Shown: piece after piece, positions 11,283 through 59,418 of the stretch
Numbering within the stretch: position 1 is the first letter of the stretch
Layout of the letters: every line of letters starts with the position of its first letter
Assembly: GCF_039543525.1 (NCBI RefSeq)
Contig: NZ_BAABJX010000017.1
Span: 117,047 to 181,046 of the forward strand
Source of the DNA: Algivirga pacifica
GTDB taxonomy: Bacteria; Bacteroidota; Bacteroidia; Cytophagales; Flammeovirgaceae
DNA: 64,000 bases
Reading direction: 5' to 3'
Notes under the pieces: generated by a model
The model's database searches: none
What the model saw: the letters and a program-made list of their open reading frames with translations, nothing else
Told to the model about the DNA's origin: nothing
Translations under genes and position numbers: made by a program

Positions 11283-11304
11283 ATTTCTTACTGTAGACGA
11301 GTAG

Positions 11305-24800: not shown

Positions 24801-27354
24801 GAACATTACTGGAAATAACATCTTTGACTACATTACCTTCCACTTGTAAGTCACATGGAGTCATAATTTCTACGTCAACTGTGTCGGAGGCAAAACAATT
24901 GCCACTTTGAGCAATGACAATATACTGTCCCGATGATACAGCAGTGATCTCATCGCCGGTAGCTGTAAAATCGTTAGGGCCACTCCATGAATAGCTGTAT
25001 TCTGAAGTACCTCCGTTGGCAGAGGCTGTTAGGACAGTTTCATTGGAGCTAATTGCCACATTAAGGGTACATTCTATGGCTGATATAGTAAAAGATTCTT
25101 CAGTAGAGCAGCCGTTTGCATCAAAAACATAAAGGGTATAGATATCAGGAGCTACATCGCTCAAATCTTTGGAAGACCCTATAAAGCCATTACTGTTGGA
25201 CCATGCATAGGTATAAGGAGCACTGCCACCATTTACAGAAATCGTGATATTATTATCAGTGACAGTTCCTTCAATCTCAATAGACGACAATTGCATAGGA
25301 ACTGAAACAAAAGAAGAAACACAACCATTGGAGTTGCTACGCACATAAAGTGCACTGCTATCAACTTCTTCTATATAAATACTGCTGCCACTATAGTCTG
25401 CTGTATTGCTAAGTGTATCGATAAACCATTCGTAAGTAAGACTGTCATTGGGATCGTCGACTGAAAGCGTAGCCTCCATACCATAGCAAACAATAATTTC
25501 CGATAAAGAAGGAGTCTCAGGAGTGATGGAAGTAAATAATTCCATGGATGTAAACTCACTTTCACATGATCCATTGGAGGCTTGTAAGTAAATCGTGGAT
25601 AGGGTATCTCCCACAGTAATACTGTTACCACTTCCAATAAGTGTCATTGGAGATAAACTGCTATACCAATTATAAGAAAGGCCATCTATTATGGTCAGCA
25701 CACTTAGCTCAGCGCTATTGCTACCACAATCACTTAGGTTGACAATTTCTGGCGTTTCAGGGGATGCTGTTACGTTTACAGTGACTACCTGATAAGTACT
25801 TTCTTCTTCCCCCCTGATAGATTGTACATAGTAATCTTTTGAAGAAGTAAGAGGCCCTGTTTCAAAGCTGTCTCCTTCTGCAATAGCAGAGGATAAAGTG
25901 TCAGAATACCAATAGTAGGTATACTCATCAATAATATTGGAAATAAGAAGTGCCGCTGTTTGTCCAGAACAAATTTCCTCGGCGGTTACGCTCGGAGGTA
26001 ACAGGATAATCTCATTGTACTCATAAGCTCCAGGGTCAGCAGCACCTCCGGTAACTCTGGGATTACCTGCTTTATCAGTATCAAATGGAAAGCTTGCTAC
26101 AGAAGCGCCTCTATCAATAATGTTAGTGGATGTAGCAGTTAAATTATAGTCATGGTTGGCAGGAGAGACAAAGGCCACCTGATCTATAGATGTGACGGTT
26201 AAGTTGCCTGCAGTATCTAATGTTGTTAGATCGTTATGGTTTGGAGGGACATAAAGTGCATTTTCTCCAGAAGCAACCCATAGGTTATTATGAATAAAGT
26301 TGCCTTGCATAAGCTCAGATTGTACCATCATACTATTGATGCCTGCATTGATCACAGTATTGTGATATACATAAAAACTTCTGCTGCTTAGGGTGGTTTC
26401 AGGATATTCATCAATCTCAATCCCCATCATACCGGCATTGACTACCACGTTGTTATAAATAACATTTCCTCCTATTCCAATACAGTTAATGCCATTGGCT
26501 CGCGCATCAATGACCGTATTATTGAAACACGTACCTGCAGTGCCTTCTCCAATTTGTATACCGTGGTTTTGAACAGCACTATTATTCAAGGTTGAAGTAC
26601 CAGTGACTTCGATATAGTTATTATAAATTTCACAGTCGTGTGTAGCTCCACCTACTTGTATGCCATCTCCTCCTGTATTGCGTATGGTGTTATTGTAGAC
26701 CTTGGCTCCGTGGATAAGGTGGGGAGTGAGTGTGCCACAGGTTTTTTTTACTCCCTTGGCAATAGAGGTATGTCCGATGTAAAGACCTTGCCCTTGTTCG
26801 GTATCATAAATTAGATTGTCATGTATAGAGATGTTTCTCATTGTGAAGTTCTCTCCCCAGGTAGAACTGTCATTGCACTGTGGGTCCGTTTTAATCATCA
26901 TTCCGGCAAACTTAGAACCGTGTACTTCTACATGGTCGATTTCGAAGTTACTGGAACGCTCCTCAGCATGTATACTCATGCTACCTCCAATGACCTCAAA
27001 ACCATAGGTTAATGAGGGGTCTCCAGTTCCAGTAAAGCGAAAGAAAGAACAGTTGGCTAAACGGATAGCGTAGGCCTTAGCGGTAGATACTTCAAATTTG
27101 ACTAACCCTCCGCAGTTCTTGATGGTAATAGGGTTGCCTTCTATGCCTTTTACATTTTCCAAGCGTAAACTGTAATCACGGACTCCTGCTGCAAGACAGA
27201 TAGTATCACCGGGTGCTACTTCTTTAGCATCCCATTTTCCTGAGGGTAGTTCAACTGGAATAGTGTGGTCACATCCACAGTCCTGAGACCAGGCATTCAA
27301 TGAGGTGAAACCTAATGTCAGTAGTAGGACAAAGAGGTATTGATACGTTTTCAT
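21826..27354 (-). CDS. T9SS-secreted surface protein: N-terminal right-handed parallel beta-helix + ~17 SprB-type repeats + T9SS C-terminal sorting domain
   Basis: Signal peptide; beta-helix repeats (NNTIRNTGGDGIQVGG, NNVVVNAGMMGIEI); many ~70-aa repeats with GGxAPYTYxWSGPNNF motif; C-terminus …NGVYFIQIQ…KKVIIQH typical Por_Secre_tail. Confidence 0.85.
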   Translation of the reverse strand: MKTYQYLFVLLLTLGFTSLNAWSQDCGCDHTIPVELPSGKWDAKEVAPGDTICLAAGVRDYSLRLENVKGIEGNPITIKNCGGLVKFEVSTAKAYAIRLANCSFFRFTGTGDPSLTYGFEVIGGSMSIHAEERSSNFEIDHVEVHGSKFAGMMIKTDPQCNDSSTWGENFTMRNISIHDNLIYDTEQGQGLYIGHTSIAKGVKKTCGTLTPHLIHGAKVYNNTIRNTGGDGIQVGGATHDCEIYNNYIEVTGTSTLNNSAVQNHGIQIGEGTAGTCFNNTVIDARANGINCIGIGGNVIYNNVVVNAGMMGIEIDEYPETTLSSRSFYVYHNTVINAGINSMMVQSELMQGNFIHNNLWVASGENALYVPPNHNDLTTLDTAGNLTVTSIDQVAFVSPANHDYNLTATSTNIIDRGASVASFPFDTDKAGNPRVTGGAADPGAYEYNEIILLPPSVTAEEICSGQTAALLISNIIDEYTYYWYSDTLSSAIAEGDSFETGPLTSSKDYYVQSIRGEEESTYQVVTVNVTASPETPEIVNLSDCGSNSAELSVLTIIDGLSYNWYSSLSPMTLIGSGNSITVGDTLSTIYLQASNGSCESEFTSMELFTSITPETPSLSEIIVCYGMEATLSVDDPNDSLTYEWFIDTLSNTADYSGSSIYIEEVDSSALYVRSNSNGCVSSFVSVPMQLSSIEIEGTVTDNNITISVNGGSAPYTYAWSNSNGFIGSSKDLSDVAPDIYTLYVFDANGCSTEESFTISAIECTLNVAISSNETVLTASANGGTSEYSYSWSGPNDFTATGDEITAVSSGQYIVIAQSGNCFASDTVDVEIMTPCDLQVEGNVVKDVISSNVQGGTAPYTYLWSGPNDFSSTDSTITAPVSGNYILIVSDREQCQDTASFEVFISEICSLEVSGTVDEAAITTLVEGGNGEYTYLWVGPENFSSSEANIVAPISGEYTVFVSSSNDCFAQASFTVEVNTPVCDLSIQASIVDYNISTTVSGGFAPYTYVWSGPDNFSSNEASIVAPISGRYTLIVTDSEQSCADTAQFDITVPEPCQVSLSGVINDNIITTNVEGGLAPYTYSWSGPDNFTSIQKNITAPVSGDYTVIVKDANDCSDTASFSVTIPEVCALTAEGEVQQYFIDLNSGGGTAPYTYSWSGPNNFSATTEDVLVPTSGTYTVTVSDANNCSITTSFLVEAAEVCELNINGTIDGNTITTSVNGGSGSYTYLWSGPEKFTSEESSITASVSGKYIVFVSESDGSCLDSATFNIEVKAPCTLQVDGSVQGDLITTTVSGSSSTYSYFWQGPNNFISNKPYITAPTSGTYIVFVSDYENCMDSASFLVDLPEQCDLQVSGSITDNAIYTTITGGTAPYSYFWQGPNNFITNKANITAPTSGNYTVFVSDNKGCLDSATFAISIEEECDLQVSGTITDNSIDITTTGGNAPYTYQWSGPNNFQANTATVEVSASGRYMVIVYSGEECFDFAYFDVTVSDSTSNDSSFVCTMSLLDNSVDSLLSVIITNGTAPYSYQWSGPNSFSSQDEQIIAIDSGLYYLLVIDSMQCVSNIAINFTPSITDSTTLIACEDVFMEALVKHRHASSNGTADGSLSITIEGGNAPYTYRWSGPNGYSSTSPSIDNLASGEYTVSITDNNLCTERFTYMIGYSSSDSNTTEDSTCQQTPLIEIASVQLPTTFGSTDGILAVTVTGGAARLSYDWSGPNGFAAKGSTIYGLQAGMYHLMTTDTEGCRQYFSYAFNSRLGAKSAETTYSISPNPAQNEVFIARGKLGQNTPVYLYNTNGQVIHQGYISGNQYKIDGLQTLPNGVYFIQIQEAEQSIMKKVIIQH

Positions 27355-30165: not shown

Positions 30166-30792
30166 ATGGATTTTTTATATGCAGCCTTACAACCAATAAA
30201 CCTTCCATTTACCGCACTAATGGCCTTTGTACTACTTTATTGGTTAAGTGTTTTGGTGGGAGTATTGGATCTGGATACTCTGGATGTTGATCTGGACGTG
30301 GATGCGGATACTGATGTAGATACAGACGTTCATTTGGATGGAAATGCATTTGCACAAGTACTTCACTTTTTCAACGTAGGGGAGATGCCAATCATGATCA
30401 TCTGTAGCTTTTGGTTTCTTTTCATGTGGGTGATTTCCATTTTTTCCAATCATTTTATGGATAACCAAAGTGGAATTGTGGCTATGGGATTAGCTTTTCC
30501 AAATATTGTGTTATCCTTATTCCTGACCAAGTTTTCTACTTGGCCATTTAAGCGTATTTTTCAGCAGATGACACAAGCGGAAGATACCTCTGCTGTGGGT
30601 AAGGAATGTGAGTTGATCTTGCCAGTATCAGCAGAGCGTATGGGACAAGCGAGAGTACAGGCAGGGAGTTATCATCAGACCATTTATGTCAAGACGGCAG
30701 ATGAAAGTATGATTTTACCCAAGGGTAAAAAGGCTTTGGTTATCGCCTATGACGAAACGGAAAAGTGCTATTGGATAGAACCAGTTTTTTAA
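30166..30792 (+). CDS. YqiJ/NfeD-like membrane protein (TM helices + acidic DxD repeats + C-terminal OB-like beta domain)
   Basis: 208 aa (E. coli YqiJ is 209 aa); two TM regions, LDLDTLDVDLDVDADTDVDTDVHLD repeat, C-terminal beta-rich tail; immediately upstream of flotillin. Confidence 0.6.
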   Translation: MDFLYAALQPINLPFTALMAFVLLYWLSVLVGVLDLDTLDVDLDVDADTDVDTDVHLDGNAFAQVLHFFNVGEMPIMIICSFWFLFMWVISIFSNHFMDNQSGIVAMGLAFPNIVLSLFLTKFSTWPFKRIFQQMTQAEDTSAVGKECELILPVSAERMGQARVQAGSYHQTIYVKTADESMILPKGKKALVIAYDETEKCYWIEPVF

Positions 30793-30935: not shown

Positions 30936-33065
30936 ATGATACAAGAAGGATTACTCATTAGTGTCGGTATGGTTGTACTGATTGTTTTTGGTACACTAGC
31001 CATGATTGCTAAATTCTATAAGAAGGTACCTCAAGGTAAGGCATTAGTTCGTACCGGTATGGGGGGCTTGAAAGTCTCTTTTCAAGGAATTATTGTTGTG
31101 CCTGTGATCCATAAGTCAGAGGTGATGGATATCTCCCTAAAAACGATTGAAATTAATCGTGAAGGAAAACAAGGCTTGATTTGTAGGGATAATATGAGAG
31201 CAGATATTCGTGTAGCTTTCTATGTTAGGGTCAATAATGATGAGAAAGATGTCGCTAACGTAGCACAGACTATAGGTTGTGAGCGTGCTTCAGATAAAGA
31301 CTTACTGGAAACTATTTTTGAATCCAAGTTCTCGGAAGCCCTGAAGACGGTCGGTAAACGATTTGAGTTTGTAGATCTATACAGCTCAAGAGATGAGTTC
31401 AAGCAAGAAGTAATCAATATTATTGGTACTGATCTAAACGGATATGTTTTAGATGATTGTGCGATAGATTACTTAGAGCAGACTCCTTTAGAATACCTTG
31501 ATCCGGATAATATTCTGGATGCAGAAGGCATCAAGAAAATCACGGACCTTACTGCTGCCCAAAAGATTCAGGCAAACCTGGTGAAGAACGATGAGATGAA
31601 ACGCATCAAGAAGCAGGATGTAGAGGGTAAGGAAGCTGTTTTGGCTCTGGAAAGACAACAAATTGAAGCAGAGGAAAAACAACGCAGGGAGATTGCAGAA
31701 GTGAGGGCAAGGGAACGCTCTTCATCAGAAAGGGTAGAACAGGAAGAACGTTTAAAAGCAGAGCAAGCACGTATACAGTCTGATGAAGAACTGGAAGTGT
31801 TGGAGGAAAATAAGAAAAGACAAGTGCTTGTTGCTGAAAAAAATAAGGAAAGAACGGAAGCGCTTGAAAATGAGCGTATAGAGAAAGAGCGTGAGCTTGC
31901 AATGAATGAGCGTGAGCGTGTGGTAGAGCTAGCGAAAATTGAAAAAGAAAGAGCGCTGGAAGAAGAGCGTAAGAGTATTCAGGATGTTATTCGTGAACGT
32001 ATTGCTGTACAGAAGGCCGTGGTGATGGAGGAAGAGCGTATCAAGGATACACAGGCATTGGCTGAGGCAGATCGTAAGAAAGCTGTGGCCATCAAAGAAG
32101 CAGAGCAAAAAGCAGAAGAAGGGCTAGTGCAGCAAATGAAGGCGGCAGAAGCTGCGAAAGAAGCTGCTAAGTTGATTGCAGAGCAGAAGAAAGTAGAGGC
32201 CGAAACAGAATACCAGACGTCTACACAAAAAGCGGAGTCCATGAAGATTCTGGCAGAGGCGAAATCAGCAGAGATTGCAGCACAAGGATTGGCAGAAGCA
32301 CAAGTAATAGAGGCAAGAGCCGCAGCCAAAGAAAAAGAAGCAGAAGCAGAAGCAAAAGGTATTGCACTCAATGCAGAGGCCGAAGCCGAAGCAAAGAAGC
32401 AAATGGGAGAGGCAGAAGCAAGCAATACAAAACTATTGATGATTGCAGAAGCAGAAGGTATGGAAGTGAAAGCCAAGGCAATCGAGCAGGAAGGACTGGC
32501 AGAAGCATTGGTACTGAAAGAGAAAGCAATGGTGGAGGCACAACGTATAGAAGCCGAAGCCGAAGCGATGAAGCACCTGGACAATGCAACCATTGCCCTG
32601 GAGCAATTCAAGTTGAAACTGAATACAGAGAAAGAAGTAGCCTTGGCACAATTGGAAATGCAGCGTGAGCTTACACAAGCACAGGCAGGTGTAATGGCAG
32701 AGGCTATGAAATCAGCGAATATTGATATTGTTGGTGGAGAAGCAGCCTTCCTTGATCGTATCATGGGATCAATCTCCATGGGTAAATCCGTAGATAAGTT
32801 CATGAGCAATAGTGAGACGATGCAGGAAGTGAAAGCAAATCTGCTGAATGGAGAGAATGGAAATGTGATCGAAAAAGTAAGAGGGTATATTGATCAGTTC
32901 GGCTTGGGTACAGAGGATATCAAAAACCTGAGTATCGCTGCCCTGCTAAACAAGATGTCCAACATGACAGAGGACAAGCAACAACAGAATGTTTTGCAAT
33001 CAGCCTTGAAGAATGCCACTGACATGGGGGTTTCTCAATCACTGGTAGGAGACTGGTTAAGGTAA
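30936..33065 (+). CDS. Flotillin-like SPFH/band-7 protein (YqiK-like) with extended coiled-coil
   Basis: N-terminal TM + SPFH domain (KFYKKVPQGKALVRTGMGG…), then ~400 aa E/A/K/R-rich coiled-coil with EAEAEA repeats. Confidence 0.85.
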   Translation: MIQEGLLISVGMVVLIVFGTLAMIAKFYKKVPQGKALVRTGMGGLKVSFQGIIVVPVIHKSEVMDISLKTIEINREGKQGLICRDNMRADIRVAFYVRVNNDEKDVANVAQTIGCERASDKDLLETIFESKFSEALKTVGKRFEFVDLYSSRDEFKQEVINIIGTDLNGYVLDDCAIDYLEQTPLEYLDPDNILDAEGIKKITDLTAAQKIQANLVKNDEMKRIKKQDVEGKEAVLALERQQIEAEEKQRREIAEVRARERSSSERVEQEERLKAEQARIQSDEELEVLEENKKRQVLVAEKNKERTEALENERIEKERELAMNERERVVELAKIEKERALEEERKSIQDVIRERIAVQKAVVMEEERIKDTQALAEADRKKAVAIKEAEQKAEEGLVQQMKAAEAAKEAAKLIAEQKKVEAETEYQTSTQKAESMKILAEAKSAEIAAQGLAEAQVIEARAAAKEKEAEAEAKGIALNAEAEAEAKKQMGEAEASNTKLLMIAEAEGMEVKAKAIEQEGLAEALVLKEKAMVEAQRIEAEAEAMKHLDNATIALEQFKLKLNTEKEVALAQLEMQRELTQAQAGVMAEAMKSANIDIVGGEAAFLDRIMGSISMGKSVDKFMSNSETMQEVKANLLNGENGNVIEKVRGYIDQFGLGTEDIKNLSIAALLNKMSNMTEDKQQQNVLQSALKNATDMGVSQSLVGDWLR

Positions 33066-33303: not shown

Positions 33304-36300
33304 ATGGAAACAACAAGTACTACTCCCTCAGCTACCGAAAATTCCCAGATCTTAGATGCTGGGACCTATGAAATACTCCGAAAACGATTAAATGTACAGG
33401 CAGATGGCTTACAGCAGCGTTTACAGCAGTTAAACGAAGCCCGGAAAGAAGTCTTCGGGGCGATGGAAGCTCGCTTGATTGCCACCGAGCGTATTGCCAC
33501 GGACCATAACTGTGTGCCTCGTGATATGGTGCCTTTGTCCAATGGCTTGTTTCTGTTTGGGTATAATGTGCACATGGGCTTAAAGCAAGAGGTGGCACTC
33601 AAGGATGTTTTTAGTATTTATGAATATAGAAAAGAAGACCATTCCTTTCACCCCAAAGAGCTAGGAGGATTAAGTGTAGAGGCATTTCACAAAGACTTTA
33701 CAGAGCTCTATAAGTATTATAAGGATACCGTATTCTCCAAGTTTTTTGTGCAGGGACCACATCTGTACATGGTTTTCCAGATTGGAAAAACGGCTAAAGA
33801 TATTAAGGCCTTCAAGTGGTTACTACAAGCTGACGGATTGACGTACGTGGATAACCGTAGCGACCACGAAATACAGTACCCCCGACAGCATGAGTTTGAG
33901 TGGAAACGAACCTCCCGAGATTTTCATAGGGAAGGGGCACACCCTCATATCTCTATTGAGGATAGGGTATTCGTAGAAACTGTAGGAGGTGACCTGACCA
34001 TAAAGGTGGAAGACAATACGGATACTGGAGAGGGAATCTATGCAGAGGAAGTAGAGCTAAAGGAACAGACACTGGATGATGCGGATATTTACTATGCGGA
34101 TCTGGGAAATCTGATTCTGTTGAAGATTAGACCATTTCAGGAAAAACAATGGCGTTATATCGTATTCAATGAGAAGCTGAAAACAGCGAAACGCATTGAT
34201 GCCATAGAAGATGCTTGTGTCCTTTTGCCGGATGATCAGGGAATTGTTTTTTCCAATGGATATTACCTGCAAACAGGAGATTATAAAGAATTTGATAGTG
34301 AGCTCACGGGGTTACATTTTGAGCGTCGGATGCATTCTCCCAATGGAGAAGATCATTTGTACGTATTTTACCAACCGGTATTAGGGGAGTATGTACTCTT
34401 GTCCTATAATGTCATTGCACAAGAAATAGAGGCACCTATCGTATGTCATGGTTTTTCTTTTTTCCGAAATGGTGAACTGGCCTATTTCAAGACCGATAAT
34501 GAACCAAAGAAAAACCATGGGATACAGGTATGGCAAACGCCTTACTGTCACCCTGATTTTGTGCAACCTACGGAGCATGCCGATAGCTTCTTATTTAAGT
34601 TGGGAAATAAGGAGATCGTAAGGGGGATGGCCGATGGATATGCCTTATTAAACCTTTGTCGAAAAGAGGATTCTTATGAGGGATTGTACGCAGATATTGC
34701 GAAGCAAGCCATGTCTCTCACCGATAACTACTATTGGACAGCCAAGGAAGAGGCTTTTACCTTACAGGCCTCTTTGGAGGAAATTCGTACTACAGCCACC
34801 ACGGCGATTGAGGAGTTTGAAAAAGTAGAACGTCAACGAAAGGAAGCAGCCGTAAAAACCAACGCTTTTGAAGAGCAAGCCACACAGCTGCTTCGAAAAG
34901 TAGAACGTCACCATTATCAACATATCGATGATTTTGTCCAAAGTCTAATTTCATTAAGAACCCTTAGAGGAGAAGCGATTTCCTTGAAGGAGGTACGTTA
35001 TATTGACTTGGCATTGCTGGAGGGGTATGAGAAGAAACTTTCTGAGAAAACAGACCTACTTTCCCAAAAGTGCGTATCCTTTCTACTGGAAGAGGAAGCT
35101 CTGCAACCTTATCGAGATAAGGTGATTACCGTACAGGAAGCAACGGAACAAGTAGATAAAGTAACCGAGGCAGATGCAACGGCCAATGAGATTGCCAATG
35201 TGGGAGGAGAGTTGGAGTTGATGATTGAGATCGTCTCCAACCTTAAGATTGAGGATGCGACACAAACCACTCGTATCATTGACGATATTTCGGATATCTA
35301 TGCACAGCTCAACCACGTAAAAGCTCGCTTGAAGGCCAAGCGTAAAGAGTTACTGGGGACGGAGGCGGTTGCTGAGTTCAAGGCCCAAATGAAGTTGTTG
35401 GGGCAATCTGTCGTGAACTACCTGGATGTAGCAGATACCCCTCAGAAATGTGAGGAGTACCTGACCCGTATCATGGTGCAACTGGAAGAGGTAGAAGGAA
35501 AGTTTACGGACTTTGAGGAGTTTTTGGAAGAACTTTCGGCTAAGAGAGAGGAAGTATACTCTGCCTTTGAGACCCGAAAGACCCAGTTACAAGAAGCGAG
35601 GAATAAGCGTAGCGCCGCTATGGTTGCTGCAGCGGAACGTATCCTGAAAGGAATTGGCAATAAGCTAAAAGGCTTCAAGGAAATCGCAGAGATCAATGCC
35701 CACTTTGCTGCCGATATGATGGTGGATAAGGTAAGGGACTTGATTGAGAAGCTGCATGAAATGGAGGAATCCAACAAGGCAGAGGACTTACAGAGTCAGC
35801 TGAAAACCTTAAAGGAGGACGCCGTCCGACAATTGAAAGACAAGCAAGACCTTTTTGTGGAGGGGGAGAATGTCATCAAACTGGGACGTCACCACTTTGC
35901 CATCAATACCCAGGAACTTGATGCTTCTATTGTGCAGAAGGGGGAAGATATGTTCTATCATCTGACGGGTACCCAGTTTTATGAAAAGATAGAGGACAAG
36001 CCATTACTGGATACCCGTTCCGTATGGAACCAAAGTCTTCCTTCCGAAAATCAAGAGGTGTATAGGGGAGAGTTCTTGTCCTATCAGATGCTTACAGCCA
36101 TGATAGGACAGCAGTTGCCGTATACGGTACAAGACTTTCTGGAGATGGAGACGAGTGAGCAACTGAAGTCGGTACAAACGTTTATGGCACCTCGTTATCA
36201 AGAAGGCTATAACAAAGGGGTACATGATCAGGATGCTTTACAAATACTAAAAGTACTCTTGACGATTTATCAACAGATAGGCTTACTGAGATATGGCCCA

Positions 36301-38235
36301 GCGAGCAGGGCTTGTGCTTATCTGTTCTGGGAAAAATTCTTGAGCAAAGAAGAAAAGCAACTGTTCAAAAATAGAATTGAAGGAGCAGGACTGATCTTGC
36401 AGGTATTTCCAGATGCGCAGGAATATAAAGAGCTGTTGTTTGATCTGGAAACAGGGATCGCGACTTTCCTTGCAGAGACCGATTTATTTGAAACCACAGT
36501 ACTTAAACAGGCAGCCGAATACCTTTTCCATCAGTTGGTCACTACGGATCATTTTGTAAGTAGTAAAGAGGCTTATACTTGCTATGTTGATTTCTATAAA
36601 TACCTAAAATTAAAGAGAGTAGAGAAGGATTTTGAGGGTGCGCTTAAAAAATTAAAACAGGCGAAAATAGTACATCAAGTAGATTTACTTAGAGGATGGG
36701 TCAATGCTTTTATGACCACATTGGATACTTATAGTAGGGAAGAGTTGTCTCCGTATAAAGAGGAGATCGTCACTTTGCTATTATCTGAAAAGGTAGAGGC
36801 TTCCAATGTGCAGGAAGTAGTGGTACGTGAGACGGTAAAAGGATTGGCAGGGGATCATTCCGTGATTCAACAAGGAGAATACTTGTTGGACTATAATGCT
36901 TTTATAGACCGCTTGATGACCTATGAGTTGCGAACATTACCACAGTACCATGCTTATTTACAAGTGAAAAATGAGTTGGTGACGACCTTTAAGAAGGCAG
37001 TAAAGTTGGAGAGCTTTAAGCCAAGGGTATTATCTTCTTTTGTTCGTAATAAACTGATCAACGAAGTATACCTTCCATTGATGGGTGATAACCTGGCGAA
37101 GCAGATGGGTACGGTAGGAGAGAACAAGCGTACCGATTTGATGGGACTGTTATTATTATTATCTCCTCCGGGATATGGAAAAACAACTTTAATGGAGTAC
37201 GTAGCCAGTAGGTTGGGACTCATATTTATGAAGATCAATGGTCCGGCAATAGGGCATCAAGTGACTTCCTTGGACCCTTCTGAAGCACCGAATGCCACAG
37301 CGAAAGAGGAGCTGGAAAAGCTTAATTTGTCCTTTGAAATGGGGGATAATGTAATGATTTACCTGGATGATATTCAGCACTGTAATCCGGAGTTGCTACA
37401 GAAATTCATCTCCCTTTGTGATGGGCAGCGAAAGATTGAGGGAGTCTATAAAGGCATTACTCGCACCTATGATTTTAGAGGAAAGAAAGTGTGTGTAGTT
37501 ATGGCAGGGAACCCTTATACAGAAACGGGAGAGAAGTTCCAGATTCCGGATATGTTGGCGAACCGTGCCGATACCTATAACCTGGGAGAGATTATCGGTG
37601 ATTCGGATGAGGCCTTTAAGTTGAGTTATATAGAGAACTCCATTACCTCCAATCCTACGTTAAGTAGTTTGAATACGGTGAGTAAGGAAGACCTATACAA
37701 CTTGATACAAGTGGCCCGTACCGGAAGTAGAGAAGGAATTACGTTTGAGAGTAACTTTTCTGGAGATGCCGTGGATGAGTATGTCAATGTATTGAAGAAG
37801 ATGCTGAAAGTACAAGACGTAGTACTTAAGGTGAACCAGCAATACGTACGTTCTGCCGCTCAAGAGGATGCTTATCGAACAGAGCCAGCCTTTAAGTTGC
37901 AAGGGTCTTATCGAAATATGAATAAGCTGGCAGAGAAGGTCGTTCCCGTGATGAATGAAGAAGAGTTGGACACCTTGTTGCTATCCCATTATGAGGGAGA
38001 GTCCCAAACATTGACGACCGGAGCAGAAGCCAATATGCTTAAGTTCAAAGAAATGATGGGGTGGTTGACGGAGGGAGAAGCCCAACGTTGGGAGAGTATC
38101 AAGCAGCAGTTCTGTGAGCAACTGAAGGTGAATACCTTGGGAGACCAGGCACAAACACAGGAACTCATGCAGCAAATCAAGGCATTGACCATAGGGTTGC
38201 AAGGCATTCAAAATGCCATCGAAAATAAAAAATAG
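33304..38235 (+). CDS. Giant (1643 aa) protein with single C-terminal AAA_5/MoxR-class ATPase module; N-terminal ~1200 aa unrecognised (beta-rich then helical/coiled-coil)
   Basis: Walker A LLLLSPPGYGKTTLMEY, Walker B VMIYLDDIQ, sensor-1 KVCVVMAGNPY, Arg in PDMLANRADTYNL; uninterrupted 4.9-kb ORF. Confidence 0.7.
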   Translation: METTSTTPSATENSQILDAGTYEILRKRLNVQADGLQQRLQQLNEARKEVFGAMEARLIATERIATDHNCVPRDMVPLSNGLFLFGYNVHMGLKQEVALKDVFSIYEYRKEDHSFHPKELGGLSVEAFHKDFTELYKYYKDTVFSKFFVQGPHLYMVFQIGKTAKDIKAFKWLLQADGLTYVDNRSDHEIQYPRQHEFEWKRTSRDFHREGAHPHISIEDRVFVETVGGDLTIKVEDNTDTGEGIYAEEVELKEQTLDDADIYYADLGNLILLKIRPFQEKQWRYIVFNEKLKTAKRIDAIEDACVLLPDDQGIVFSNGYYLQTGDYKEFDSELTGLHFERRMHSPNGEDHLYVFYQPVLGEYVLLSYNVIAQEIEAPIVCHGFSFFRNGELAYFKTDNEPKKNHGIQVWQTPYCHPDFVQPTEHADSFLFKLGNKEIVRGMADGYALLNLCRKEDSYEGLYADIAKQAMSLTDNYYWTAKEEAFTLQASLEEIRTTATTAIEEFEKVERQRKEAAVKTNAFEEQATQLLRKVERHHYQHIDDFVQSLISLRTLRGEAISLKEVRYIDLALLEGYEKKLSEKTDLLSQKCVSFLLEEEALQPYRDKVITVQEATEQVDKVTEADATANEIANVGGELELMIEIVSNLKIEDATQTTRIIDDISDIYAQLNHVKARLKAKRKELLGTEAVAEFKAQMKLLGQSVVNYLDVADTPQKCEEYLTRIMVQLEEVEGKFTDFEEFLEELSAKREEVYSAFETRKTQLQEARNKRSAAMVAAAERILKGIGNKLKGFKEIAEINAHFAADMMVDKVRDLIEKLHEMEESNKAEDLQSQLKTLKEDAVRQLKDKQDLFVEGENVIKLGRHHFAINTQELDASIVQKGEDMFYHLTGTQFYEKIEDKPLLDTRSVWNQSLPSENQEVYRGEFLSYQMLTAMIGQQLPYTVQDFLEMETSEQLKSVQTFMAPRYQEGYNKGVHDQDALQILKVLLTIYQQIGLLRYGPASRACAYLFWEKFLSKEEKQLFKNRIEGAGLILQVFPDAQEYKELLFDLETGIATFLAETDLFETTVLKQAAEYLFHQLVTTDHFVSSKEAYTCYVDFYKYLKLKRVEKDFEGALKKLKQAKIVHQVDLLRGWVNAFMTTLDTYSREELSPYKEEIVTLLLSEKVEASNVQEVVVRETVKGLAGDHSVIQQGEYLLDYNAFIDRLMTYELRTLPQYHAYLQVKNELVTTFKKAVKLESFKPRVLSSFVRNKLINEVYLPLMGDNLAKQMGTVGENKRTDLMGLLLLLSPPGYGKTTLMEYVASRLGLIFMKINGPAIGHQVTSLDPSEAPNATAKEELEKLNLSFEMGDNVMIYLDDIQHCNPELLQKFISLCDGQRKIEGVYKGITRTYDFRGKKVCVVMAGNPYTETGEKFQIPDMLANRADTYNLGEIIGDSDEAFKLSYIENSITSNPTLSSLNTVSKEDLYNLIQVARTGSREGITFESNFSGDAVDEYVNVLKKMLKVQDVVLKVNQQYVRSAAQEDAYRTEPAFKLQGSYRNMNKLAEKVVPVMNEEELDTLLLSHYEGESQTLTTGAEANMLKFKEMMGWLTEGEAQRWESIKQQFCEQLKVNTLGDQAQTQELMQQIKALTIGLQGIQNAIENKK

Positions 38236-38298
38236 AACGTAACTTCTGTACGTTTTGCGATTATATATTTGGTTCGTAGGAATGTGATTGTCAACGAT

Positions 38299-38501
38299 GA
38301 ATAAATAACTGTCATACTACCAACTAGCTTTGTTGAATCCGTTACACGGCGTCTCGAATTGAGCTTTGCTCGTTGAATCGTTGATTGAAACCTTACTAAG
38401 GTAATCAAACAACAATTCAACTCGAATCAACGAATCAACTCACCGAAGGTGAAATTCAACGATTCAACAAAGCTGACTAGTAGTATGATAGTTAATTATT
38501 C
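38299..38501. mobile_element. MITE-like element, copy 1 (TIR GAATAAATAACTGTCATACTAC / GAATAATTAACTATCATACTAC)
   Basis: ~22-bp terminal inverted repeats plus subterminal GTTGAATCGTTGAT / ATTCAACGATTCAAC arms; near-identical organisation at 59118..59333. Confidence 0.6.
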
Positions 38502-38542
38502 ACCCTATAGAGCAAATTGTTTTTTAACCAATTAATTTTTTC

Positions 38543-40492
38543 ATGAATTATATACAAAGGGGACTACTTACATTGGTAGGAGTTTTTTCCCTAATCACCC
38601 ACAGTATGGCCGACTCCGGCGATAAACCCCAATATGCTGTCAGTAAAATTGATCCTGAACTCAAAAAAGGAAAATATTCCGTGGTCAGGGTGGATGAGAT
38701 GGAGCTAGACGTAATTACACCCACAAAGGCTCTTTTCAAAACCCATTATGTCATCACGATCTTCAATAAGAAAGCAGAAGATTTAGCGGAGCATGCCTTT
38801 ACCTATGACAACGAAACAGTATTATCCTTTGCAGAGGCCAGGGTATATGATCAAAATGGTGATTTGCTGGATCGTATCAAGGCTAAGGACATGAAGGATG
38901 AGGGGACTTACAGACATACTTCTTTGTTTGATGATAACCGTAGAAAAGTAGTTGACCTGAAGCGAACGACCTATCCCTATACGGTAGAGTTTGTAGAGGA
39001 GAAAGTGCTGCATTCGACCATGTTTTTACCTTCTTGGGTTGGATTCTCTGATCGCAAGATGGGGGTGGAATCTTCAATATATAAGGTAACGGCTCCTGCA
39101 GGAGTATTGAAGTACAAACAGAATGAAATGGCGCCAGAGCCTGTGATTTCCAAACAAGAAGGAAAAGAAACCTACGTATGGAAGCTAGAGCAGGAAGAAG
39201 GGATACGAAAGTTTGAAAAGCGCTACCCAATAGCTGAACAGCTGCCTAGCGTAACACTTGCAGCCAATGTTTTTGCAATGGATGGCCATCAGGGAGATTA
39301 TACGTCATGGAAGACCTTTGGAAAGTGGATCTGGGGGCTAAACAAAGGACAGGACGTCGTTCCAGAAGAATTAAAATACACCATTCATAGCGTAACCGAT
39401 ACGTTACAGACCTCTAGAGAGAAAGCAAAAGCCGTTTACGAATTTGTGCAGCAAAATACCCATTATGTAAACTTGTCATTAGGTATAGGAGGTTTCAAGC
39501 CTTTTAGCGTAGAGCAAGTATACCGTACTGGGTATGGAGATTGTAAGGCGCTGACAAATTATACCTATTCATTATTGAAAGAAGTGGGGGTGCCCTCTGT
39601 TTATACTTTGGTAAGGGCTGGGCGTGATGCTAATCCTATCGATACGACATTTGTTGCTAGTCAATTTAATCATGTTATCCTATCTGTTCCCTTAGACAAA
39701 GATACGGTGTTTCTGGAGTGTACCAGTCAGGACGTACCTTTCGGATTTATTGGTGGGTTTACTGATGACCGTGATGTACTATTTATTACAGAAGAAGGAG
39801 GGGAATTAGGTAGAACAAAGCGATATACCCAAGAAGAGAATGTATGGAGCTCAAAAATGGAAGTGTTGCTCGATGAGGAAGGAGTTGCCAGAAGTACCTA
39901 TTGGTTAAATGCCACTGGAATGATGTATGATAATTTTTACTTCATGTTAGGGGTAAAAGAAAGAGAAAAGCAAATCAAGTTTATTAATCGTTTGCTGGAG
40001 GTGAAAAGTATGGAGATTGGTGAGATCGAGATGGAAGAGGAACGGGATGTAATCCCCACATTCCACTTGAAAACAGATTTTGAATCCAGGTTAATGGTGG
40101 AGAAAAGTGTGGGACGATTTTTCATTACGCCCAACCAAGTCAATGCGCTGACGAGCACGCCTAAAAAAGCCAAGAACAGAAAGAACCCTTTCTATCAGTA
40201 CAATGAAGATATAGAAGTAGATACCGTGGTATGGCAGCTGCCAGAGGGGTATAGTTTAGAAAATAAGCCTGCCGATATTCAGTTGAAATGTCCGATGGGT
40301 ACCTTTGAGGCAACCTATAACGTGGAGGGAAGCCAACTAACATATACTAGAAAACTGGCACTTCAAAAAGGGGTATATGCCCCCGAACTATACAACGAAT
40401 ATGTGGAGTTCCTGAGAAGCGTCAAAAAAGCAGACCGAGAAAAGGTGACCTTTCACAAACAAGAAGAAGACTCACCTAAAAAGGATTTATAA
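38543..40492 (+). CDS. Secreted DUF3857/transglutaminase-like/DUF3858-type protein
   Basis: Signal peptide; transglutaminase-like core YRTGYGDCKALTNYTYSLLKEVGVP with Cys; 649 aa typical of this Bacteroidota family. Confidence 0.55.
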   Translation: MNYIQRGLLTLVGVFSLITHSMADSGDKPQYAVSKIDPELKKGKYSVVRVDEMELDVITPTKALFKTHYVITIFNKKAEDLAEHAFTYDNETVLSFAEARVYDQNGDLLDRIKAKDMKDEGTYRHTSLFDDNRRKVVDLKRTTYPYTVEFVEEKVLHSTMFLPSWVGFSDRKMGVESSIYKVTAPAGVLKYKQNEMAPEPVISKQEGKETYVWKLEQEEGIRKFEKRYPIAEQLPSVTLAANVFAMDGHQGDYTSWKTFGKWIWGLNKGQDVVPEELKYTIHSVTDTLQTSREKAKAVYEFVQQNTHYVNLSLGIGGFKPFSVEQVYRTGYGDCKALTNYTYSLLKEVGVPSVYTLVRAGRDANPIDTTFVASQFNHVILSVPLDKDTVFLECTSQDVPFGFIGGFTDDRDVLFITEEGGELGRTKRYTQEENVWSSKMEVLLDEEGVARSTYWLNATGMMYDNFYFMLGVKEREKQIKFINRLLEVKSMEIGEIEMEEERDVIPTFHLKTDFESRLMVEKSVGRFFITPNQVNALTSTPKKAKNRKNPFYQYNEDIEVDTVVWQLPEGYSLENKPADIQLKCPMGTFEATYNVEGSQLTYTRKLALQKGVYAPELYNEYVEFLRSVKKADREKVTFHKQEEDSPKKDL

Positions 40493-40534
40493 TTAGAGCT
40501 CATTCAATTTTTTTTCATTTTTAATTTTAACCAA

Positions 40535-42517
40535 ATGCGATTAATCATTACACTGCTTTTATTATGCTTTTTATCTACGGCTTTTGGGCAGTTTAAAACG
40601 GCTAAATGGGGTAGGCTATTTAAAGAAGATGTAGAATATACTACATGTGAATTTGAGCCTGAAGCTAAGGCGGTTATTTTGTTTCATGTTGGGAAGTATA
40701 ATTTCATAGGTTCAAGTAATCAAATACATACAAATATCTATAAGCGTATAAAGCTTTTAACTGATGACGCTGAAGAGTACGCTAATATTGTTATTCCTAT
40801 TTATACTAAGGATGATACAGAACGCATTTCAGGACTGCATGCTCAAACGTTGGTTGTAGACCCCAATGGTAAATTGCAGAAGTATACTCTAGATAAAAAA
40901 GATATATATTATACGAAGCTAAATGAGAATATAACTTTAGTGAAATTCACTTTTCCTCAGGCACAGAAAGGGGCAATTTTAGAGTATAAATATCGAGTAA
41001 GAGACAAGAATATTGTTATGCCTGATCCATGGTATTTTCAAAGTGAGAAGATGCCTACAGAGTTCAGCCATATTAAATTTACTTACCCAGATTACTTGGG
41101 GTATAAGATAAAGACACAAGGTCATCGCTTATCCTTAAAGTATATGGGTAAGAATAATATTAATGCTTGGGAGTTAGAGAAAATACCTTCAATGAAGGAT
41201 GTGGATTTTCTTTTTTGCGAGGATGATTATCGACTCCAGCTTTCAATTCAGCTTAATTCCTACAGGACAAATCAAGGCTACGACAAGGAATTCGGTAATA
41301 ATTGGAATCAAATAGCGAAATCAACACGTCTAGCAGACGCATTTTATAGTTACAATCGGAAAGGGAAATACAAAAAGATTGTAGAAGAGATTGTGCAAGA
41401 TGATGATTCTGAGCAAGTAAAAGTGTCAAAGCTTTATGCTTATGTAACAACACACTTCAAATGGGACGAGAAGTATGATCTTTACCCTTCACAATCTTTA
41501 TCAGAGTTGCTAGTAAGTAAAAAAGGAAGCTCCGCAGAACTGAACGCCTTGATGAAAGGCTTGTGCGAGGTGGCAGGTTTACAGGCTGAGTGGGTGGCGA
41601 ACAGTACGCGTACACATGGAATGATTTTCGAACATATTCCTATGTTTGATGCTTTCAATAACCTATTGGCAAGTGTTGTTGTGGATGGGAAACAATGGTA
41701 TATAGATACCACACATCCGAAACTTCCATGGAACTTGCCTCACCAAAACTTGCTAACGACTAAGACATTTGCTTTTGAACGCTCAGGAAGCTTCTGGGGA
41801 GAGGTAGCGACGGATGAGAGAAGTATGGTGAATATGTACTTTCAGATGGACTATACAGGAGAGGAACCAACCTGTAAGGCCAAAATTAGCTACCAAGGAT
41901 ACGATGCTTACGATAAGAGAAAAGAGCTGTTGAAAGAAAAAGAAGCACTGGAAGAAGAAGAGGATGAGGACGAAGACGAGGAGGAAGATGAGGAGGAAGA
42001 TGAGGAGGATGCAACCGAGGACGAAGATGATGAAGAGTTTATGCTGCAAGGGTTTGAGGTTGTGAATGCTGAATTGTCTGACCTTGAAAATGTGAATGAG
42101 GATGTAACCCTTAGCTTGGAGTGGAAAGCAGACCCATTGACTGAGGAAACAGGAAACATCTACCTGGAGGCCGTAGCACCTACGATATTCAAGGATAACC
42201 CTTTTACACAAGAACAACGATTATTCCCAATAGAATTTGATAGCCCGTGGCATTTTAATTATGTAATGACGGTTAAAATACCGAAAGGGTATCGTATCGC
42301 AGATCAACCCAAAGGAACAGCTGCCCGACTGCCAGCGAATGTAGGAAAGGTAGTCTATGTGGCTAATGAGAATGCGGGGATTCTAACGGTACGTATGAAG
42401 GTAGATATCAATAATACGTATATGCATCAGGATTTCTATCCAAACCTGAAGCAGTTCTTTGATTTACTGTTGGATTACAGTAACAAGAAAATTGTGATGG
42501 AGAAAGTAGATATATAA
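40535..42517 (+). CDS. Secreted DUF3857-like paralog with internal poly-acidic stretch
   Basis: Signal peptide; same overall size and architecture as upstream gene; EEEEDEDEDEEEDEEEDEEDATEDEDDEE insert; 42-bp gap from upstream gene. Confidence 0.45.
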   Translation: MRLIITLLLLCFLSTAFGQFKTAKWGRLFKEDVEYTTCEFEPEAKAVILFHVGKYNFIGSSNQIHTNIYKRIKLLTDDAEEYANIVIPIYTKDDTERISGLHAQTLVVDPNGKLQKYTLDKKDIYYTKLNENITLVKFTFPQAQKGAILEYKYRVRDKNIVMPDPWYFQSEKMPTEFSHIKFTYPDYLGYKIKTQGHRLSLKYMGKNNINAWELEKIPSMKDVDFLFCEDDYRLQLSIQLNSYRTNQGYDKEFGNNWNQIAKSTRLADAFYSYNRKGKYKKIVEEIVQDDDSEQVKVSKLYAYVTTHFKWDEKYDLYPSQSLSELLVSKKGSSAELNALMKGLCEVAGLQAEWVANSTRTHGMIFEHIPMFDAFNNLLASVVVDGKQWYIDTTHPKLPWNLPHQNLLTTKTFAFERSGSFWGEVATDERSMVNMYFQMDYTGEEPTCKAKISYQGYDAYDKRKELLKEKEALEEEEDEDEDEEEDEEEDEEDATEDEDDEEFMLQGFEVVNAELSDLENVNEDVTLSLEWKADPLTEETGNIYLEAVAPTIFKDNPFTQEQRLFPIEFDSPWHFNYVMTVKIPKGYRIADQPKGTAARLPANVGKVVYVANENAGILTVRMKVDINNTYMHQDFYPNLKQFFDLLLDYSNKKIVMEKVDI

Positions 42518-59080: not shown

Positions 59081-59117
59081 AGAAGTAGTTGTTCTTATCT
59101 ATCCATCTATTAAGTTT

Positions 59118-59333
59118 GAATATTTATCCGTCACACTACCAAATCGCTTTGTTGAACCGTTGAATCGTTGAATTAAGCTTCGCTCGTTGATTCGAGTTGA
59201 ACTGTTGATTGATAGTTATATGTCCCCATACAACGAATCAACTCGAATCAACGAGCGAAGCTCAATTCAACTCTCCGAAGGAGAAATTCAACGATTCAAC
59301 AGAGCTGGTTAGTAGTATGTCGGTTATTTATTC
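59118..59333. mobile_element. MITE-like element, copy 2 (TIR GAATATTTATCCGTCACACTAC / GAATAAATAACCGACATACTAC)
   Basis: Same architecture as copy at 38299..38501, including GTTGAA(C/T)CGTTGAATCGTTGAAT arm and CGAAGGAGAAATTCAACGATTCAAC. Confidence 0.6.
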
Positions 59334-59418
59334 AACTTTATTTTATGGATAGATACTGTTTAATTATTAGTTTCAAGTTTCTTGAATTCGGTTGATAATT
59401 CAACTCGAGTCAACCTGA

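What the first reader, a model, noticed from the sequence alone, without database searches (positions are those of the whole stretch)
33304..38235. 1643-aa single-module AAA_5 ATPase with about 1200-aa unassigned N-terminal region
Most MoxR/AAA_5 proteins are about 300-500 aa, or are multi-module giants such as midasin and dynein. Here one AAA_5 module (about aa 1270-1450) sits at the C-terminal end of a very long polypeptide. The N-terminal about 450 aa look beta-rich (possible propeller or beta-sandwich). The central about 700 aa are helical with coiled-coil-like heptads. There is no VWA partner nearby, which is the usual MoxR companion. The protein is an uninterrupted ORF with no frameshifts.
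Basis: seen in the sequence. Interest (0 to 1): 0.7.

Follow-up and report, generated by a model that had tools for sequence, protein, structure and literature searches.

The report
Flotillin-operon giant MoxR-type AAA+ ATPase
The 1643-residue protein is real, but it is an ordinary member of a large, already catalogued bacterial family, mislabelled "DNA repair ATPase", that is almost always encoded just after a flotillin gene and a small membrane-protein gene, so it most likely works on membrane scaffolds rather than DNA.

Summary
The ORF at 33304-38235(+) is real and intact. It is 100% identical to Algivirga pacifica "DNA repair ATPase". The N-terminus is not unassigned: Pfam places DUF3686 at aa 36-477 (E=1.7e-192) and DUF7902 at aa 598-682.

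AlphaFold2 models (pLDDT 85-87) show:
- a roughly 27-strand propeller-like beta domain;
- spectrin-like helical bundles;
- a small beta plus helical middle domain;
- a helical C-terminal domain.

The two upstream co-directional genes encode a YqiJ/NfeD-like 3-TM protein and a 709-aa flotillin. The flotillin gene lies just upstream in 58 of 61 informative related loci from seven phyla, and also in Pseudomonas, Proteus, Streptomyces and Deinococcus. About a third of loci add PspA and a CesT/YbjN-like gene.

Ravi et al. 2024 (PMC11237479) already described this operon computationally. I found no experimental work.

Best reading: a cytoplasmic, probably hexameric, VWA-less MoxR-type ATPase that docks on and remodels the flotillin-NfeD membrane scaffold. 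It is neither a DNA-repair enzyme nor a dynein-like motor. Interest is moderate to low.

The parts
30166..30792 (+). Gene 1 of the cassette: a 208-aa YqiJ/YuaF (NfeD1b-like, former DUF1449) membrane protein with three predicted TM segments and a soluble C-terminal domain.
   Evidence: Pfam YqiJ_N scores 22.7 bits, E=1.2e-4, just under the 23-bit cut-off. Nine of 26 orthologues hit YqiJ_N. The only PDB hit of the family profile is the YuaF C-terminal domain 2k14, E=0.35, which is not significant alone. Hydropathy gives TM segments at about aa 11-39, 68-96 and 102-123. UniRef names it 'DUF1449 family protein'. A homologue is present upstream in 54 of 61 informative loci.
30936..33065 (+). Gene 2: a 709-aa flotillin-family protein with an N-terminal TM helix, an SPFH/band-7-like domain, an E/A-rich coiled coil and a flotillin-type C-terminus.
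   Evidence: NCBI names it 'flotillin family protein'. There is one TM segment at aa 1-29. The window protein has no Pfam hit, but 3 of 26 orthologues hit Band_7, best E=2.5e-12. The family profile hits the SPFH protein QmcA 8z5g at E=0.0012. A homologue lies directly upstream and co-directional in 58 of 61 informative loci. The same holds in Pseudomonas pQBR103, Proteus, Streptomyces and Deinococcus.
33304..38235 (+). Gene 3: the 1643-aa DUF3686-DUF7902-AAA+ protein that is the subject of the finding. It has no TM segment or signal peptide and is predicted to be cytoplasmic.
   Evidence: It is 100% identical to WP_345369647.1 'DNA repair ATPase' of Algivirga pacifica.
33472..34536 (+). Beta-rich, propeller-like domain at aa 57-411. 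It is the core of Pfam DUF3686 (aa 36-477) and is preceded by a conserved helix at aa 19-51.
34588..35853 (+). All-helical region at aa 429-850 with helices of 15-58 residues. It includes Pfam DUF7902 (aa 598-682, nt 35095-35349).
35872..37023 (+). Middle region at aa 857-1240: a small beta domain (about 857-895), a globular helical domain (about 920-1160), and a beta element plus long helix leading into the ATPase. It carries invariant residues H886, Y969, K971, G972, H974, D975, D977 and R1002. No known family matches it.
   Evidence: AlphaFold2 model md96ea7016af6. Invariant columns are. aa 1001-1240 are the least conserved part, at 29% identity. No Pfam or PDB sequence match was found.
37024..37683 (+). 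AAA+ alpha/beta core at aa 1241-1460. Walker A SPPGYGKTT is at aa 1287-1295 (nt 37162-37188) and Walker B MIYLDDIQH at aa 1351-1359 (nt 37354-37380). There is a pre-sensor-1 beta-hairpin at aa 1377-1390, sensor-1 N1403 and R1421.
37684..38232 (+). Lid and C-terminal helical domain at aa 1461-1643. It has invariant R1525 and the motif QGSYR (1533-1537), a candidate sensor 2. The last about 40 residues are variable and show heptad periodicity.
   Evidence: Some homologues extend this end; for example, P0099 carries ankyrin repeats.

Best explanation
The gene is the third member of a conserved three-gene operon: a YqiJ/NfeD-like 3-TM protein, a flotillin, and a giant AAA+ ATPase. This is the 'abbreviated' form of a PspA-associated envelope-stress cluster.

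Shown here:
- The three genes are linked across many phyla.
- The ATPase is soluble. It carries an intact nucleotide-binding site whose motif residues are invariant, with a MoxR/CbbQ/NorQ-type fold.
- A propeller-like domain and helical bundles lie N-terminal to the ATPase.

Inferred:
- The ATPase probably assembles, like other MoxR-type AAA+ proteins, into a hexameric ring with six long N-terminal arms.
- The propeller and helical arms probably dock on the cytoplasmic face of the flotillin-NfeD oligomer.
- ATP hydrolysis would then remodel that scaffold, either by assembly, disassembly or turnover of the flotillin cage, or by loading and extracting client membrane proteins.
- This would happen as part of membrane maintenance or an envelope-stress response.

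In this reading flotillin-NfeD replaces the VWA/MIDAS adaptor that MoxR ATPases normally use. The 'DNA repair ATPase' product name is most likely an annotation artefact.
For: 1. Linkage. The flotillin homologue is directly upstream and co-directional in 58 of 61 loci with at least 3.5 kb of upstream sequence, and the YqiJ/NfeD homologue in 54 of 61. These loci come from Bacteroidota, Planctomycetota, Verrucomicrobiota, Kiritimatiellota, Omnitrophota, Desulfobacterota and Clostridia. Median intergenic gaps are 13.5 nt (NfeD to flotillin) and 140 nt (flotillin to ATPase).
2. The same flotillin-ATPase pair occurs in Pseudomonas pQBR103, Proteus mirabilis, Streptomyces and Deinococcus at 38-44% identity.
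3. In 21-23 loci the cluster extends to a divergent HTH gene, a YbjN/CesT-like gene and PspA. In pQBR103 it is joined to a PspA-polyamine cluster.
4. Topology fits. The flotillin has one N-terminal TM, the NfeD-like protein has three TM segments, and the ATPase has none.
5. The catalytic motifs are invariant and the AAA+ core is 77% identical across phyla. The fold is closest to CbbQ and NorQ.
6. The propeller-like domain and helical bundles are typical protein-protein interaction modules.
7. There are weak fusion hints. P0132 joins an NfeD1b_N domain to DUF3686. The fragment P0237 joins a flotillin C-terminus to the ATPase N-terminus.
8. Ravi et al. 2024 made an independent computational description and proposed a chaperone-like role in sub-membrane dynamics (PMC11237479).
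9. From established knowledge, SPFH cages pair with AAA+ machines elsewhere (HflK/C-FtsH), and MoxR ATPases act as remodelling chaperones (CbbQO, NorQD, RavA-ViaA).
Against: - There is no direct evidence of physical interaction, oligomeric state or ATPase activity.
- Three of 61 loci lack the flotillin neighbour (L016, L026, L034). In eight loci the flotillin gene and the ATPase gene are more than 1 kb apart; in four of these that I inspected (L005, L008, L042, L052) unrelated small genes lie in the gap.
- According to PMC11237479, flotillin-YqiJ pairs occur widely without the ATPase, so the ATPase is an accessory rather than an obligate partner.
- The Walker B motif is DD rather than the usual DE, which may mean slow hydrolysis or a switch-like role.
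- No aromatic pore loop is evident, so a threading mechanism is uncertain.
- The fusion examples come from a 5x-coverage contig and from a fragment, and could be errors.
- The true substrate could be PspA or an unknown client rather than flotillin itself.
Confidence: 0.55

Rival explanations
1. PspA/ESCRT-III disassemblase. The ATPase would be a Vps4-like recycler of PspA polymers, with flotillin-NfeD serving only as the membrane platform that recruits it.
For: PspA and a CesT/YbjN-like gene sit directly upstream of the cassette in 21-23 of 81 loci and in pQBR103. Ravi et al. draw the Snf7/Vps4 analogy for PspA-linked AAA+ proteins.
Confidence: 0.15
2. Genuine DNA-repair or SMC/SbcC-like ATPase, as the NCBI and Pfam names state.
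For: Only the product names 'DNA repair ATPase' and 'ATPase involved in DNA repair', plus weak Walker A-region similarity to RuvB (about 20 bits against cut-offs of 282-299).
Against: There is no hit to SMC, SbcC, Rad50 or any nucleic-acid-binding family. The P-loop lies in a C-terminal AAA+ fold of MoxR type, not in a split ABC head. The conserved neighbours are membrane proteins. No DNA-repair genes are conserved nearby.
Confidence: 0.03
3. Anti-phage or conflict system. It would be a membrane-acting abortive-infection module in which the ATPase senses infection and the flotillin-NfeD pair is the effector.
For: Large NTPases with propeller or repeat sensor domains are common in defence systems. 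In Pontibacter the locus sits next to an integrase, group II intron reverse transcriptases and transposases. Copies occur on megaplasmids.
Against: There are no PADLOC hits for any of the three proteins and no homologue in 50,697 phage records. Sequence conservation is very high across phyla (46-56% over 1640 aa, AAA+ core 77%), unlike fast-evolving defence sensors. Only 13 of 72,556 plasmid records carry it, and these are mostly chromids or mislabelled chromosomes. Linkage to PspA points to envelope-stress physiology.
Confidence: 0.07
4. Structural membrane coat, tether or cytoskeletal scaffold. In this reading the propeller plus helical architecture is the functional core and the ATPase only regulates assembly, analogous to propeller plus helical coat proteins.
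For: The top Foldseek matches for aa 1-860 are propeller plus helical coat-type proteins (IFT-A subunits, clathrin heavy chain, Vps11) at E=4e-6 to 1e-4.
Against: Those alignments have rmsd of 16-40 A and TM-scores of 0.1-0.3, so they reflect domain order and not a shared fold. The helical part matches short bundles, not an alpha-solenoid. The most conserved part of the protein is the ATPase, not the scaffold.
Confidence: 0.1

Closest known systems
The 'beta-propeller + coiled-coil + AAA-ATPase' protein of CesT/Tir-PspA-YqiJ/YuaF-band-7/flotillin operons. Ravi et al. 2024 described it computationally (mSystems, PMC11237479; example Dokdonia donghaensis near ANH61663.1).
   Same: The domain order, the YqiJ/YuaF-like and flotillin upstream genes, and the phylum (Bacteroidota) are all the same. 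The paper explicitly mentions abbreviated operons with only band-7/flotillin, YqiJ/YuaF and sometimes the AAA+. That is what this window contains.
   Different: The window lacks the CesT/Tir-PspA dyad and the divergent HTH gene. The paper gave no structural classification of the AAA+ module or of the middle domains, and no experiments.
MoxR-family AAA+ ATPases CbbQ (Rubisco activase CbbQO), NorQ (NorQD) and RavA
   Different: MoxR proteins are about 270-500 aa and work with a VWA/MIDAS adaptor. This protein is 1643 aa with about 1240 aa of N-terminal domains, has no conserved VWA neighbour, has a DD Walker B, and scores 20.3 bits against the 22-bit AAA_5 cut-off.
HflK/C-FtsH, an SPFH cage paired with an AAA+ machine
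   Same: An SPFH-family scaffold is functionally coupled to an AAA+ ATPase at the cytoplasmic membrane. This rests on established knowledge; the coupling here is inferred from operon linkage.
   Different: FtsH is a membrane-anchored classic-clade AAA+ protease enclosed by a periplasmic cage. Here the ATPase is soluble, MoxR-type and has no protease domain. The flotillin is predicted to face the cytoplasm.
Dynein and midasin (Rea1), giant AAA_5 proteins
   Different: They carry six concatenated AAA modules in one chain, and a stalk or MIDAS domain. This protein has one module and no long two-stranded stalk.
YqiJ-YqiK (E. coli), YuaF-FloT (B. subtilis) and SO1376-SO1377 (S. oneidensis) two-gene flotillin operons
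   Same: They have the same first two genes, an NfeD1b/YqiJ-type membrane protein and a flotillin. The SO1377 deletion has oxidative-stress and iron phenotypes (PMC1468410).
   Different: Those operons end after the flotillin, and SO1377 is followed by a terminator. The flotillin here is longer (709 aa) and is followed by the ATPase.

Membership tests
DUF3686-DUF7902-AAA family (NCBI 'DNA repair ATPase') | A Pfam PF12458 (DUF3686) match above the gathering score at the N-terminus. | tested here: met
   640.3 bits against a cut-off of 25, covering aa 36-477 over profile positions 2-448 of 448.
DUF3686-DUF7902-AAA family (NCBI 'DNA repair ATPase') | A PF25472 (DUF7902) match plus a C-terminal AAA+ module, colinear over about 1600-1900 aa. 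| tested here: met
   DUF7902 scores 93.9 bits against a cut-off of 26, and AAA scores 29.7 against 21.2. The 120 best homologues cover 98-100% of the query at 53-67% identity. Full-length relatives reach down to 30% identity.
PspA-associated flotillin/YqiJ/AAA+ operon (Ravi et al. 2024) | [quoted passage not shown] | tested here: met
   The 709-aa gene at 30936-33065 is named flotillin family protein. Its orthologues hit Band_7 at 2.5e-12. The neighbour is conserved in 58 of 61 loci.
PspA-associated flotillin/YqiJ/AAA+ operon (Ravi et al. 2024) | A 3-TM YqiJ/YuaF-type protein in the operon. | tested here: met
   The gene at 30166-30792 has three TM segments. YqiJ_N scores 22.7 bits, borderline against a cut-off of 23. 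Nine of 26 orthologues hit YqiJ_N. YuaF is the sole PDB hit, and it is weak.
PspA-associated flotillin/YqiJ/AAA+ operon (Ravi et al. 2024) | A CesT/Tir-PspA dyad in the same operon (the full form). | tested here: not met
   tblastn with 23 PspA, 21 YbjN/CesT-like and 21 HTH neighbours from related loci finds nothing in the 64-kb window. This locus is the abbreviated form that the paper also describes.
MoxR / AAA_5 (pre-sensor-1 hairpin, helix-2-insert clade) AAA+ | An AAA+ core with the closest fold to MoxR members and a pre-sensor-1 beta-hairpin. | tested here: met
MoxR / AAA_5 (pre-sensor-1 hairpin, helix-2-insert clade) AAA+ | A Pfam AAA_5 score above the gathering threshold. | tested here: not met
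   The window protein scores 20.3 bits against a cut-off of 22. Homologues P0171 (25.2), P0099 (24.0) and P0169 (24.2) do pass.
MoxR / AAA_5 (pre-sensor-1 hairpin, helix-2-insert clade) AAA+ | A VWA/MIDAS partner protein encoded adjacently. | tested here: not met
   No VWA domain occurs in the scanned neighbours between window positions about 18.5 and 48.4 kb. The only neighbour clusters conserved across 81 loci are flotillin, NfeD, PspA, YbjN-like and HTH.
Dynein/midasin-type giant AAA proteins | Six tandem AAA modules in one polypeptide. | tested here: not met
   There is one P-loop and one AAA match (aa 1283-1404). AlphaFold2 shows one alpha/beta ATPase core.
SMC/SbcC/Rad50-type DNA repair ATPases | An ABC-type head split by a long antiparallel coiled coil, and DNA-repair gene context. 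| tested here: not met
   There are no SMC_N, AAA_23 or SbcC hits. The ATPase is an AAA+ fold. Heptad segments are short. The neighbours are membrane proteins.
Known anti-phage defence systems | A match to a PADLOC model, or presence in phage or defence-island context. | tested here: not met
   PADLOC finds nothing for any of the seven proteins scanned (the three cassette proteins and four neighbours). There is no tblastn hit in the phage collection.
MoxR / AAA_5 (pre-sensor-1 hairpin, helix-2-insert clade) AAA+ | Hexameric ring assembly and ATP hydrolysis. | not testable with these tools
   This needs a multimer prediction or biochemistry. Only the invariance of Walker A, Walker B, sensor-1 and Arg residues was shown.

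The most novel reading that the evidence does not exclude
The protein could be a dedicated ATP-driven remodeller of bacterial flotillin-NfeD cages. It would be a VWA-less MoxR hexamer whose six propeller and helical arms grip the cytoplasmic dome and assemble it, open it or disassemble it. That would be a bacterial counterpart of Vps4/ESCRT-III or FtsH/HflKC, and it would give the first enzymatic handle on what bacterial flotillins actually do. It has been hidden under the name 'DNA repair ATPase' in at least ten phyla.
Probability: 0.3. Interest if true: 0.7.

Novelty: already known. Interest (0 to 1): 0.35.

Why it matters
The function of bacterial flotillins, and the way SPFH scaffolds are assembled and turned over, are still unresolved. 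A strongly conserved ATPase sits in the same operon, with an AAA+ core 77% identical from Bacteroidota to Clostridia. That makes it an obvious experimental entry point.

The current product name 'DNA repair ATPase' steers annotators and experimenters in the wrong direction. As a discovery, however, this locus adds little. The family has Pfam models, thousands of sequenced members and a published comparative-genomics description of exactly this operon.

What this analysis adds:
- a structural assignment of the ATPase to the MoxR/CbbQ/NorQ type without a VWA partner;
- a quantified flotillin linkage of about 95%;
- a domain map of the 1643 residues.

Tried and rejected
- NCBIfam gave only RuvB Walker A-level hits, about 20 bits against cut-offs of 282-299.
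- PADLOC found nothing.
- PDB sequence searches with the single protein and with a 60-sequence profile matched only about 40-50 residues around Walker A of p97, VAT, Rix7 and RuvB. No solved relative exists.
- Literature searches for DUF3686, PF12458 and 'DNA repair ATPase' plus flotillin returned nothing.
- The sigma-70 promoter and terminator scan was at chance level. It is also inappropriate for Bacteroidota promoters.
- The P. aeruginosa bac cluster (PMC10948618) is a different PspA-CesT cluster without this ATPase.
- The S. oneidensis SO1376/SO1377 pair (PMC1468410) is a two-gene flotillin operon without this ATPase.
- The downstream DUF3857/transglutaminase-like genes (38543-42517) were considered as partners. 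They were rejected because they have no homologues in any of the 83 loci fetched up to that point.
- The 'assembly chimera' idea was rejected because of full-length colinearity with homologues.
- The fusion ORFs P0132 and P0237 are kept only as weak hints, because they come from a low-coverage contig and a fragment.
Full report
**1. The observation**

The ORF listing finds one uninterrupted ORF at 33304..38235(+), 1643 aa with an ATG start. The protein is 100% identical to the RefSeq protein WP_345369647.1, 'DNA repair ATPase' of Algivirga pacifica (Bacteroidota, Cytophagales, Flammeovirgaceae).

Pfam assigns much of the 'unassigned' region:
- DUF3686/PF12458 at aa 36-477 (E=1.7e-192, 640 bits);
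- DUF7902/PF25472 at aa 598-682 (E=7e-27);
- AAA/PF00004 at aa 1283-1404 (29.7 bits, above its cut-off);
- AAA_5 at 20.3 bits, just below its 22-bit cut-off.

NCBIfam and PDB sequence searches see only the Walker A neighbourhood.

The ORF is colinear over 98-100% of its length with the 120 best database relatives, at 53-67% identity. In total 5303 proteins reach E<=1e-5 among the 8000 candidates scored. It is also colinear with 80 genome loci and 13 plasmid or chromid records. It is therefore not a chimera or a frameshift product.

**2. Anatomy**

Two AlphaFold2 models were built on 60-sequence alignments: aa 1-860 (pLDDT 84.6) and aa 840-1643 (pLDDT 86.5). They give the following map:
- a conserved helix at aa 19-51;
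- a beta-rich domain at aa 57-411 with about 27 strands;
- an all-helical region at aa 429-850 with helices of 15-58 residues;
- a small beta domain at about aa 857-895;
- a globular helical domain at about aa 920-1160;
- a beta element and a long helix leading into one AAA+ alpha/beta core at about aa 1250-1430;
- a lid and C-terminal helical domain running to the end.

The following residues are invariant in 77 sequences from seven phyla:
- Walker A GYGKT;
- Walker B DD(IQH);
- sensor-1 N1403;
- R1421, R1525 and R1537.

Conservation is striking:
- the AAA+ core is 77% identical;
- the DUF3686 domain is 55% identical;
- aa 1001-1240 is only 29% identical;
- the last 40 residues are 20% identical.

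**3. Context, the key point**

Two co-directional genes lie directly upstream. The first, at 30166-30792, encodes a 208-aa protein:
- it has three TM segments;
- its YqiJ_N hit is borderline;
- UniRef names it 'DUF1449 family'.

The second, at 30936-33065, encodes a 709-aa protein:
- it has one N-terminal TM helix;
- it has an E/A-rich coiled coil;
- NCBI names it 'flotillin family protein'.

Family-level checks support both identities:
- 3 of 26 flotillin orthologues hit Pfam Band_7, best E=2.5e-12;
- the flotillin profile hits the SPFH protein QmcA;
- 9 of 26 NfeD-like orthologues hit YqiJ_N;
- the NfeD-like profile's only PDB hit is B. subtilis YuaF, and it is weak.

The 80 related genome loci come from Bacteroidota, Planctomycetota, Verrucomicrobiota, Kiritimatiellota, Omnitrophota, Desulfobacterota and Clostridia. 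Among them, the flotillin homologue is directly upstream on the same strand in 58 of 61 loci that have enough upstream sequence. The NfeD-like gene is there in 54 of 61. Median gaps are 13.5 nt and 140 nt.

The pair also precedes the ATPase in Pseudomonas fluorescens pQBR103, Proteus mirabilis, Streptomyces and Deinococcus.

In 21-23 loci, judging from the record titles all Bacteroidota, the cluster is extended upstream by a divergent HTH gene, a YbjN/CesT-like gene and PspA. In pQBR103 it follows a PspA-polyamine cluster. None of these extra genes is present in this window. The window's downstream transglutaminase-like genes are not conserved neighbours.

**4. Prior knowledge**

Ravi et al. 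2024 (mSystems, PMC11237479) describe exactly this arrangement. CesT/Tir-PspA is combined with three further genes:
[quoted passage not shown] - a 3-TM YqiJ/YuaF protein.

They note that abbreviated operons without PspA are widespread. Their supplement lists the Dokdonia donghaensis example. I found no experimental paper on the ATPase.

**5. Mechanism**

Shown:
- The three genes are linked in an operon across at least ten phyla.
- The ATPase is soluble and sits next to two membrane proteins.
- The ATPase site is intact, its motif residues are invariant, and its fold is MoxR-type.
- The N-terminal modules are of a protein-interaction type.
- There is no VWA partner.

Inferred: the ATPase forms a MoxR-like hexamer. 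Its propeller and helical arms dock on the cytoplasmic flotillin-NfeD oligomer, and ATP hydrolysis remodels that scaffold or its clients during membrane maintenance or envelope stress. I put about 0.55 on the general statement and about 0.3 on flotillin itself being the substrate.

Rivals:
- a Vps4-like PspA recycler (0.15);
- a structural coat or tether (0.10);
- an anti-phage system (0.07), given no PADLOC hit, no phage homologue, and conservation too high for a defence sensor;
- a true DNA-repair ATPase (0.03), given no SMC, SbcC or nucleic-acid-binding signal and the wrong ATPase fold.

**6. Verdict**

Its premise of an orphan giant with an unassigned N-terminus and a dynein-like lever is not.

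The protein is an ordinary member of a catalogued family that has been described computationally but not studied experimentally, and whose product name is misleading. Novelty is 'already known'.

Interest is moderate to low (0.35). It comes mainly from the link to the unresolved function of bacterial flotillins.

Noticed in passing
window 38298-38502 and about 59096-59355: A palindromic repeat element of about 200-260 nt occurs in two intergenic regions. One copy is downstream of the ATPase gene and the other downstream of the TonB-dependent receptor gene at 59419-62682(-). At the first site the terminal arms are 42 nt and 86% complementary. Both copies share termini (TGAATAAATAAC..CATACTAC..AGCT.TGTTGAATC) and nested GTTGAATCG/CGATTCAAC units. 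No real Rfam family matches; the only hits are plant miRNA hairpin models far below threshold. It is MITE- or REP-like.
   Followed up: partly
window 1-12000 versus the rest: The first 12 kb or so have 28-34% GC, against 38-46% elsewhere. This stretch carries a run of co-directional ORFs of about 180-440 aa. It may be a horizontally acquired island, but its content was not examined.
   Followed up: no
window 38543-40492 and 40535-42517: Two tandem paralogous genes (649 and 660 aa) carry DUF3857 plus a transglutaminase-like core, with or without DUF3858. They lie directly downstream of the ATPase. They are not conserved next to it in other genomes.
   Followed up: partly
window 21826-27354(-), 53114-55165(+) and 44251-46407(+): Two of these genes encode type IX secretion cargo. 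One is a 1842-aa SprB-repeat/Ig_7 protein with a Por_Secre_tail. The other is a GxGYxYP glycoside-hydrolase-like protein with the same tail. The third gene encodes an SLH-domain plus Peptidase_C39-like protein.
   Followed up: no
L084 8001-12038 (ENA contig ctg142925_5x_l), protein P0132: One ORF joins an NfeD1b_N domain (aa 74-215, 56.6 bits) to DUF3686-DUF7902. A separate 982-aa AAA ORF follows it, a flotillin gene precedes it, and an IS110 transposase lies nearby. This is either a real Rosetta-stone fusion or the result of indel errors in a 5x-coverage assembly.
   Followed up: partly
P0237 (557-aa metagenomic fragment): A single ORF matches the flotillin C-terminal part (aa 386-640 of the window flotillin) and then the ATPase N-terminal part (aa 68-286). 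This may be a flotillin-ATPase fusion or a gene-calling artefact.
   Followed up: no
L001 10001-15721 (Desulfobacterales bacterium HSG16), protein P0099: This homologue carries C-terminal ankyrin repeats at aa 1792-1887. Many Planctomycetota and Verrucomicrobiota homologues are 1750-1930 aa with extra C-terminal sequence. The C-terminus is therefore the variable, possibly partner-specific end.
   Followed up: partly
window aa 857-1002 of the ATPase (nt about 35872-36309): There is a cluster of invariant polar residues in a region with no known family: H886, E915, Y920, R921, Y969, K971, G972, H974, D975, D977 and R1002. The motif is KGVHDxDA. It could be a second active or ligand site, or an interface with the ATPase ring.
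   Followed up: no
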